Assembly (NCBI GenBank): GCA_951406725.2 | Contig: OX597821.1 | Coordinates: forward strand, 29,698,001-29,762,000 | Source: Octopus vulgaris | Lineage: Eukaryota | DNA: 64,000 nt | Direction of reading: 5' to 3' | Shown: in pieces, positions 41,779-41,826 of the stretch | Layout of the letters: each line of letters opens with the position of its first letter | Position numbering within the stretch: the first letter of the stretch is position 1 | Notes under the pieces: generated by a model | What the model saw: only the letters and a program-made list of their open reading frames with translations | What the model was told of the DNA's origin: nothing | Databases searched by the model: none | Program-made: the position numbers and the translations under genes

Positions 41779-41826
41779 CATTTCAGTACCGGTTTCGGTC
41801 ATTTTGAGACCTTTTCAACTGTAACG
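41779..41826 (-). ncRNA. Minimal type I hammerhead ribozyme, U3-A8 core variant
   Basis: Minus strand reads cgttacag-TTGAAAA-ggtc tcaaaat gacc-GAAA-ccgg-TA-ctgaaatg. This gives stem I, a 4-bp stem II, palindromic stem III and a GUA cleavage triplet. Confidence 0.8.

What the first reader, a model, noticed from the sequence alone, without database searches (positions are those of the whole stretch)
41779..41826. U3-A8 covariant hammerhead in the 3' UTR of an intact-ORF Penelope-like element
Seen: cgttacag-TTGAAAA-ggtctcaaaatgacc-GAAA-ccgg-TA-ctgaaatg, about 700 nt downstream of the RT-GIY-YIG stop on the same strand and about 50 nt from the element end. The canonical CUGANGA is replaced by UUGAAAA, so both partners of the C3-G8 tertiary pair changed together. 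Established: the 3-8 pair tolerates compensatory swaps, and palindromic stem III (A-CCGG-U) is typical of PLE hammerheads that fold as dimers. Inference: a functional variant that standard CUGANGA motif searches would miss.
Basis: partly seen in the sequence, partly recalled or inferred. Interest (0 to 1): 0.75.

Follow-up and report, generated by a model that had tools for sequence, protein, structure and literature searches.

The report
Known variant hammerhead in Penelope retroelement
This 48-base motif is one of about 1,800 identical copies at the tail of a young Penelope-type jumping gene; it is predicted to fold as a self-cutting hammerhead ribozyme with a base-pair swap that is already in print, so it is real but largely ordinary, and cutting is untested.

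Summary
The motif is there (minus strand, 41826 to 41779) and is not chance: 1,820 exact copies in the genome against 0 for the control; only 9 copies differ at core positions 3 or 8. U3-A8 is fixed in this family and recurs in other Penelope-like (PLE) families of the genome (5,813 further matches, control 60), where stem I covaries and position 17 is never G (0 of 55). It is therefore very likely a selected type I hammerhead of the dimer-folding kind. It is not new: natural U3-A8 cores (Perreault 2011) and U3-A8 PLE hammerheads (Cervera 2014, about 1,300 in Schistosoma) are published. Correction: the ORF is stop-free but 5'-truncated; this copy holds 2.75 kb of a 4.41 kb unit, has one hammerhead and no upstream repeat. 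Insertions almost always read through the uncut site, and the 5' and 3' repeats of one insertion share private variants. That fits a cut-and-religated circular template, but also an uncut template with a strand jump. Side findings: full units have two ORFs joined by a conserved candidate -1 frameshift, and a sister family spread with U3-G8. Cleavage was not testable. Interest low to moderate.

The parts
41779..41826 (-). Type I hammerhead motif with U3-A8 core: stem I (3 bp, A.A mismatch, 4 bp), UUGAAAA, 4-bp stem II with 7-nt loop, GAA, palindromic ACCGGU, A17; predicted cut between 41787 and 41786
   Evidence: Sequence; copies; covariation and folding; Rfam HH9 alignment
41723..42523 (-). 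3' UTR / pseudo-LTR of the element, with an internal (TTC)n/(TCA)n microsatellite; ends 63 nt after the predicted cut, without the optional tail of about 34 nt
   Evidence: of 30 sibling ends 16 lack the tail, 13 have it, 1 runs on into the next unit
42524..44470 (-). 5'-truncated, stop-free ORF2 fragment (648 aa): DKG motif, RT (YLDD), CX4CXXC linker, GIY-YIG endonuclease; 637 of 648 residues identical to the open frame of L188
44471..44525 (.). (TA)n run at the truncated 5' junction (target microsatellite)
41706..41722 (.). (TA)n run at the 3' junction (target microsatellite)

Best explanation
The motif is the hammerhead of the 3' pseudo-LTR of a young, high-copy Penelope-like retroelement, with the known U3-A8 swap fixed in the family, and it is predicted to be inactive alone and to cut only as a dimer formed through its palindromic ACCGGU. 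Shown: sequence, copy number, fixation, covariation across families, element anatomy. Inferred mechanism: in tandem or partial-tandem donors two hammerheads 4.4 kb apart on one transcript (or two transcripts) pair through ACCGGU and cut slowly, probably helped by the element's protein; this would release a unit-length RNA that is likely re-ligated, restoring the site; reverse transcription would start internally 63 or about 97 nt past the site, primed at a nicked (TA)n target, and run for less or more than one unit. This copy itself is a 5'-truncated product with one hammerhead and no upstream repeat, so it most likely does nothing on its own.
For: 1,820 exact copies, 9 variants at positions 3 or 8. 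With GAAACCGGT as anchor: U3-A8 5,813 further matches (control 60), C3-G8 328 (40), C3-A8 321 (52), U3-G8 392 (56). In 55 distinct U3-A8 contexts, features not in the search pattern fit a hammerhead: N17 A27/U20/C8/G0, N7 free, stem I 2.45 of 3 Watson-Crick pairs against 1.33 +/- 0.12 in shuffles (0 of 5,000) and 0.45-0.89 when slid, with G-C/U-A, A-U/U-A and C-G/A-U exchanges. Monomer fold lacks stem III (-9.1 kcal/mol); the dimer minimum (-25.7) has the double-hammerhead topology. Head-to-tail arrays of 2-4 hammerheads exist. 5' and 3' repeats of one insertion are identical in 10 of 16 loci against 15 of 240 cross pairs (0 of 10,000 permutations). U3-A8 cores were shown active in vitro according to Perreault 2011; the anole PLE hammerhead cuts with protein help and RT starts at two internal sites.
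Against: No cleavage or ligation was measured. Insertions do not mark the cut: 0 of 15 candidates end at it; of 31 copies that reach the ORF1 start, 30 run upstream across it and 1 begins at +105; 5 stubs begin at -2..0, more than in three upstream 3-nt windows (1, 1 locus, 1) but fewer than at +3..+5 (12 rows, 10 loci), so no specific peak. A sister family has U3-G8 and a 2-bp stem II in 99 of 100 listed of 111 copies. In the anole element hammerhead mutants did not affect insertion in vitro and no RNA-seq ends were found at the site. Same-strand pairs are rare (4 of 74 clusters in the first 100 matches; 20 are inverted pairs, 50 single). The 55 contexts come from a handful of families and 37 of the 57 loci were hand-picked, so they count as few independent events. 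Repeat identity within insertions is also explained by a strand jump on a linear RNA or by gene conversion.
Confidence: 0.6

Rival explanations
1. The fold is conserved but cutting is marginal or dispensable: uncut read-through RNA from partial-tandem donors is the template, and the motif serves mainly as a protein-binding or RNA-dimerisation element, or regulates translation of the ORF1 that starts about 125 nt downstream; repeat identity comes from a strand jump.
For: Nearly all insertions cross the intact site; U3-G8 sister family; a 6,005-match repeat with a hammerhead-like A6U core; anole data that uncut RNA is the dominant substrate; low in vitro rates of PLE hammerheads.
Against: N17 never G and the 3-8 pair kept as Watson-Crick in more than 7,600 of about 8,700 anchored matches point to selection on catalytic features, although these counts are dominated by a few amplified families.
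Confidence: 0.3
2. The CAG just before U3 is a spliceosomal 3' splice site, as at helix I of Drosophila virilis Penelope, so that splicing switches stem I and gates the ribozyme.
For: U-rich tract and CAG directly 5' of U3; precedent in D. virilis.
Against: No joint at that position in contigs of 8 laid runs (contigs, so weak). Related families have CUU or AAU in place of CAG, compensated on the other strand of stem I, which is what pairing, not splicing, predicts.
Confidence: 0.06
3. A decayed canonical hammerhead or a chance look-alike (two private C-to-T and G-to-A changes).
For: Both changes are common transitions in an AT-rich genome; weak Rfam score; folding z -0.55; one C3-G8 copy exists in the family.
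Against: Fixed in 1,820 copies; shared by other families, two of them with ORF2 about 57% identical or partial ORF2 hits beside the motif; stem I covariation.
Confidence: 0.04

Closest known systems
U3-A8 hammerheads of Schistosoma mansoni Cercyon PLEs (Cervera and de la Pena 2014, PMC4209133; read parts 1-2 of 4 of the text, searched 2 supplementary files)
   Same: Type I hammerhead in the pseudo-LTR, U3-A8 core, palindromic 15.2-16.2, U-rich 5' and AU-rich 3' flanks, proposed dimer action and circular template.
   Different: Here a 4-bp stem II without the extra base between 9 and 10.1 and a 2-nt palindromic loop 3 (their 'small palindromic Helix III' group); near-zero sequence heterogeneity (1,820 identical), as for D. 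virilis rather than Schistosoma.
Natural U3-A8 core variants (Perreault et al. 2011, PMC3088659; read section 8 and passages)
   Same: Same 3-8 covariation; that paper also notes 2-bp stems II and U10.1-U11.1, seen here in related families.
   Different: There a few examples from a broad survey; here the swap is the majority state among ACCGGU-type motifs of one genome.
Poseidon element of Anolis carolinensis (Frangieh et al. 2024, PMC11167929; read parts 1-2 of 4)
   Same: Hammerhead in the pseudo-LTR, two 3' ends that define a tail, AT-rich targets, insertions crossing the uncut site.
   Different: Canonical C3-G8 and a single ORF that starts inside the ribozyme; here the ATG lies about 125 nt past the cut and there are two ORFs.
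Neptune/Nematis EN+ PLEs (Craig et al. 2021, PMC8557442; passages and a supplement search, figure not seen)
   Same: C-terminal GIY-YIG, DKG motif, CX2-5CxxC linker, (TA)n targets, partial tandems, inverted 5' copies, 30-40 bp tail.
   Different: Two ORFs with a candidate -1 frameshift; the paper's Fig. 1 legend allows an ORF1 with frameshift and pseudoknot, but I could not see for which clade, and family A shows no stable downstream structure.
Small dimer-cleaving PLE hammerhead variants (Lunse, Weinberg and Breaker 2017)
   Same: By its title and the review passage: PLE-associated variants that cleave as dimers.
   Different: Not readable here; whether it lists this family or tests U3-A8 is unknown to me.

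Membership tests
Type I hammerhead ribozyme, dimer-folding PLE kind | Core 3-9 and G12-A13-A14 with a Watson-Crick 3-8 pair | tested here: met
   UUGAAAA and GAA present; U3-A8 fixed
Type I hammerhead ribozyme, dimer-folding PLE kind | Stems I and II, supported by covariation | tested here: met
   Stem I exchanges across families, 2.45 of 3 pairs against 1.33 shuffled; G10.1-C11.1 to A-U in family B
Type I hammerhead ribozyme, dimer-folding PLE kind | A15.1-U16.1, palindromic stem III, N17 not G | tested here: met
   ACCGGU then A17; 0 of 55 contexts have G17; dimer minimum-energy fold. The palindrome was part of the search anchor, so its conservation across families is not an independent test.
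Type I hammerhead ribozyme, dimer-folding PLE kind | Site-specific self-cleavage | not testable with these tools
   No assay; only assembled contigs available
Rfam Hammerhead_HH9 (RF02275) | Score at or above the gathering threshold (52 bits) | tested here: not met
   19.7 bits; not filed under this Rfam family
Minimal hammerhead (min-HHR) in the narrow sense of Cervera 2014 | Long stem II, extra base between 9 and 10.1, no loop 3 | tested here: not met
   4-bp stem II, no extra base, 2-nt loop 3; fits the paper's palindromic-Helix-III variants instead
Endonuclease-bearing Penelope-like element | RT followed by a C-terminal GIY-YIG domain | tested here: met
   RVT_1 34.5 bits (cut-off 29.6); GIY-YIG E 3.5e-4, 21.2 bits, just under the 22.6 cut-off; DKG, YLDD and YIG motifs
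Endonuclease-bearing Penelope-like element | Pseudo-LTR partial tandems, inverted 5' copies, optional tail | tested here: met
Endonuclease-bearing Penelope-like element | Single ORF (an optional frameshifted ORF1 is allowed for some types) | tested here: inconclusive
   Two overlapping ORFs in three families; the figure that assigns ORF1 to clades was not visible
Neptune clade | CX2-5CxxC linker before the endonuclease and microsatellite targets | tested here: met
   CGRPNCGIC at residue 514; (TA)n junctions. The linker is shared with Nematis.
Neptune clade | Placement in an RT tree with reference elements | not tested
   No reference PLE sequences were fetched; Neptune-like is inferred from motifs only

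The most novel reading that the evidence does not exclude
This is an autonomous, very recently active, two-ORF Penelope-like element that replicates through a 4.4-kb RNA circle made by its U3-A8 double hammerhead: the cut is always healed in insertions, both repeats of an insertion come from one template copy, arrays of 3-4 units are rolling copies, RT is made by a -1 frameshift, and the same ACCGGU palindrome lets the genome's 359-nt retrozymes use the machinery. With about 100 ORF1-bearing candidates it would be a direct natural test of the untested circular-template model for PLEs.
Probability: 0.3. Interest if true: 0.6.

Novelty: new member of a known kind. Interest (0 to 1): 0.27.

Why it matters
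The motif itself adds little: the variant, its PLE setting and the dimer model are published. Two points have some value. First, CUGANGA searches would miss most ACCGGU-type hammerheads of this genome (more than 7,600 U3-A8 against 328 C3-G8), which matters for annotation. Second, the role of PLE hammerheads is an open question, and this young, homogeneous family with natural U3-A8, U3-G8 and C3-G8 relatives gives ready material to test whether cutting and a circular template are needed.

Tried and rejected
Splice-acceptor idea: no joint at the CAG in 8 laid runs. RNA evidence: no RNA holder listed on record; all runs are contigs and cannot show ends, strand or level, so nothing is concluded on expression. 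Footprint of cleavage in insertion ends: none at 3' ends (0 of 15); 5' stubs at the cut 5, against 1, 2 rows (1 locus), 1 upstream and 12 rows (10 loci) just downstream, where AT-rich microhomology with (TA)n confounds the count: inconclusive. One search counted one chimeric unit wrongly as identical and missed three 5' units; it was replaced, which leaves out locus L062 and has one locus (O) with a single usable unit. output was cut. Rfam gives only a sub-threshold match. Folding z-score is uninformative. Pfam found nothing for ORF1 (best E 0.093). No stable structure after the slippery site in family A (-0.2 kcal/mol; family E -10.5; family C not folded because the script pattern missed it). 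Literature: 'hammerhead' + 'U3-A8' gave 1 paper; 'hammerhead' + 'octopus' gave no report of this family in the 15 of 51 listed; C3U + G8A gave 0; two frameshift searches gave only Craig 2021 and one unrelated paper. Lunse 2017 and Arkhipova 2017 were not held, Arkhipova 2006 was not read, and one supplementary file of Cervera 2014 was not searched; any of these may already describe this family or its frameshift.

Full report
Observation. The quoted 48 nt lie on the minus strand at 41826 to 41779. They read as stem I 5' strand, U3-U4-G5-A6-A7-A8-A9, a 4-bp stem II with a 7-nt loop, G12-A13-A14, the palindrome ACCGGU, A17 (41787) and the stem I 3' strand. A 648-codon stop-free frame ends at 42524 on the same strand and carries RT and GIY-YIG domains with DKG, YLDD, CX4CXXC and YIG motifs. 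The element ends at 41723 in (TA)n. Rfam finds only a weak Hammerhead_HH9 match (19.7 bits, cut-off 52) and the folding z-score is -0.55, so the case rests on comparison, not on the single copy. The host looks like an octopus (2.8-Gb, microsatellite-rich genome; my inference, also stated in unchecked earlier notes); no call names it.

The element. Siblings show a 4,412-bp unit. The window copy covers only its last 2.75 kb and starts at a (TA)n run; longer siblings continue 136 codons further in frame. So 'intact ORF' is wrong: this is a 5'-truncated copy with one hammerhead and no upstream repeat. The family shows the anatomy described for PLEs: partial tandems, inverted 5' copies (20 inverted pairs, 4 clusters with a same-strand pair and 50 singles among 74 clusters of the first 100 matches), and two 3' ends, at +63 and about +97 from the predicted cut (16 without tail, 13 with, 1 running on, of 30). 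The linker and the targets point to the Neptune (or Nematis) type; no tree was made.

Is U3-A8 fixed? Yes. The exact 32-nt core occurs 1,820 times, control 0. Allowing other bases gives 5 copies without U3 (3 C3-A8, 1 G3-A8, 1 C3-G8) and 4 with U3 but not A8; these two patterns carry three extra 5' letters, so the comparison is slightly uneven. With GAAACCGGT as anchor the genome holds 5,813 further U3-A8 matches from other families (control 60), 328 C3-G8 (40), 321 C3-A8 (52) and 392 U3-G8 (56); spacer ranges differ by one base between these searches. PLE ORF2 hits lie beside the motif in 5 of 20 long loci from these families. In 55 distinct U3-A8 contexts (57 loci out of the first 100 listed of 5,813; 20 taken in order, 37 hand-picked) position 7 varies, position 17 is never G, and stem I pairs (2.45 of 3) far above shuffled (1.33, 0 of 5,000) and slid controls, with exchanged pair types. 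None of these features was in the pattern. They come from a handful of families, so they are a few evolutionary events, not 55. In contigs of four other runs, three of them labelled as other organisms, no other letter was listed at positions 3 or 8 (threshold 3%, presence only).

How it likely works. A single motif cannot form stem III (monomer -9.1 kcal/mol with stems I and II only); two copies fold at -25.7 kcal/mol into the double-hammerhead topology. Head-to-tail arrays with 2-4 hammerheads about 4.4 kb apart exist. Insertions almost never mark the cut: 0 of 15 candidates end there; 30 of 31 copies that reach the ORF1 start run upstream across it, 21 with 5' ends spread from -78 to -1271 and 9 beyond the locus edge, and 1 begins at +105. 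Five short stubs begin at -2..0, three exactly at the cut, against 1, 1 and 1 loci in three upstream windows and 10 loci at +3..+5: no clear peak. The 5' and 3' repeats of one insertion share private variants: identical in 10 of 16 loci (10 differences in 4,586 sites) against 15 of 240 cross pairs (952 in 68,790; 0 of 10,000 permutations). So one template copy of the repeat is read twice, or the repeats are homogenised afterwards. My preferred reading (inference) is slow, probably protein-assisted dimer cleavage of tandem transcripts, re-ligation to a unit circle, and internal priming at two sites, as proposed by Cervera and de la Pena, with RtcB-type ligation shown for animal retrozymes and two internal RT starts shown for the anole element. 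The main rival is an uncut linear template with a strand jump, where the fold matters but cutting hardly does; the anole data and the U3-G8 sister family (111 copies) support it. I give the first 0.6 as a whole (hammerhead fold about 0.95, some catalytic role about 0.7, the circle step about 0.4) and the second 0.3.

Comparison with what is known. Natural U3-A8 cores were reported in 2011, with earlier in vitro proof of activity cited there. U3-A8 hammerheads in PLE pseudo-LTRs were reported in 2014, about 1,300 in S. mansoni, found with a dedicated descriptor; the same paper gives palindromic stem III, dimers and low rates. The finding is thus a new member of a known kind. I found no paper on this family, but Lunse 2017 and Arkhipova 2017 could not be read and Arkhipova 2006 was not read. 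Earlier notes of this scan report the same variant in many genomes (43 findings in at least 10 genomes); they are unchecked and are not counted as support.

Side results. Full units have an ORF1 (ATG about 125 nt after the cut) that overlaps ORF2 in the -1 frame at U UUU UUA; the heptamer sits at the same junction in three families whose ORF2 proteins are about 57% identical, and 25 of 26 family-A junctions read keep it unchanged. A frameshifted ORF1 is mentioned for some PLEs. The statement that U3-A8 is the majority holds only for ACCGGU-type motifs: a separate repeat with a hammerhead-like C3-G8, A6U core has 6,005 matches.

Verdict. Observation confirmed with one correction; interpretation right in kind, overstated in novelty, untested in function. 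Interest 0.27.

Noticed in passing
L061:1947-3128 and 3068-4153; L141, L181, L184, L188: Full-length units have two ORFs; ORF2 (784 codons, no ATG before residue 68) overlaps ORF1 in the -1 frame at U UUU UUA, kept in three families about 57% identical: candidate programmed frameshift; no stable downstream structure in family A.
   Followed up: partly
L081-L100 (e.g. G000:C1:70848757-70852763): Sister PLE family, 111 copies, with U3-G8, a 2-bp stem II and a U.U first pair of stem I, fixed in 99 of 100 listed copies: a seemingly weakened hammerhead that still spread.
   Followed up: partly
L062 / L083 (G000:C1:70852734-70852854): Chimeric tandem: a family-A element inserted just upstream of the sister family's hammerhead, placing two different ACCGGU hammerheads about 95 nt apart on one strand; seen at 1 of 20 loci.
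   Followed up: no
window 12470-12520 (-) and about 6220-6265 (-): Repeat with a hammerhead-like fold and an A6U core (CUGUUGA), 4-bp stem II, palindromic ACGU and 5-bp stem I; 6,005 pattern matches in the genome, control 0; A6 in only 2 of 100 listed. Both window copies have G17.
   Followed up: partly
window about 24945-24990 (-): Copy of another repeat family with a canonical C3-G8 core, bulged base and long stem II; no PLE ORF hit in 6 loci tested.
   Followed up: partly
L125-L131, L186 (G000:C1:20002279-20004541): Tandem 359-nt retrozyme-like units with a canonical C3-G8 hammerhead and the same ACCGGU palindrome, in a partly inverted array like the PLE insertions; some related units have C3-A8.
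   Followed up: partly
L178, L179: Recurrent repeat with CUGAUAA ... GAAACCGGU but no obvious stem II, a large share of the C3-A8 matches.
   Followed up: no
window 37920-38340: Inverted-repeat element of about 420 bp with short telomere-like TTAGGG runs in its arms, MITE-like (seen directly).
   Followed up: no
window 42110-42400: The element carries its own (TTC)n/(TCA)n microsatellite in the 3' UTR, whose length varies between copies.
   Followed up: no
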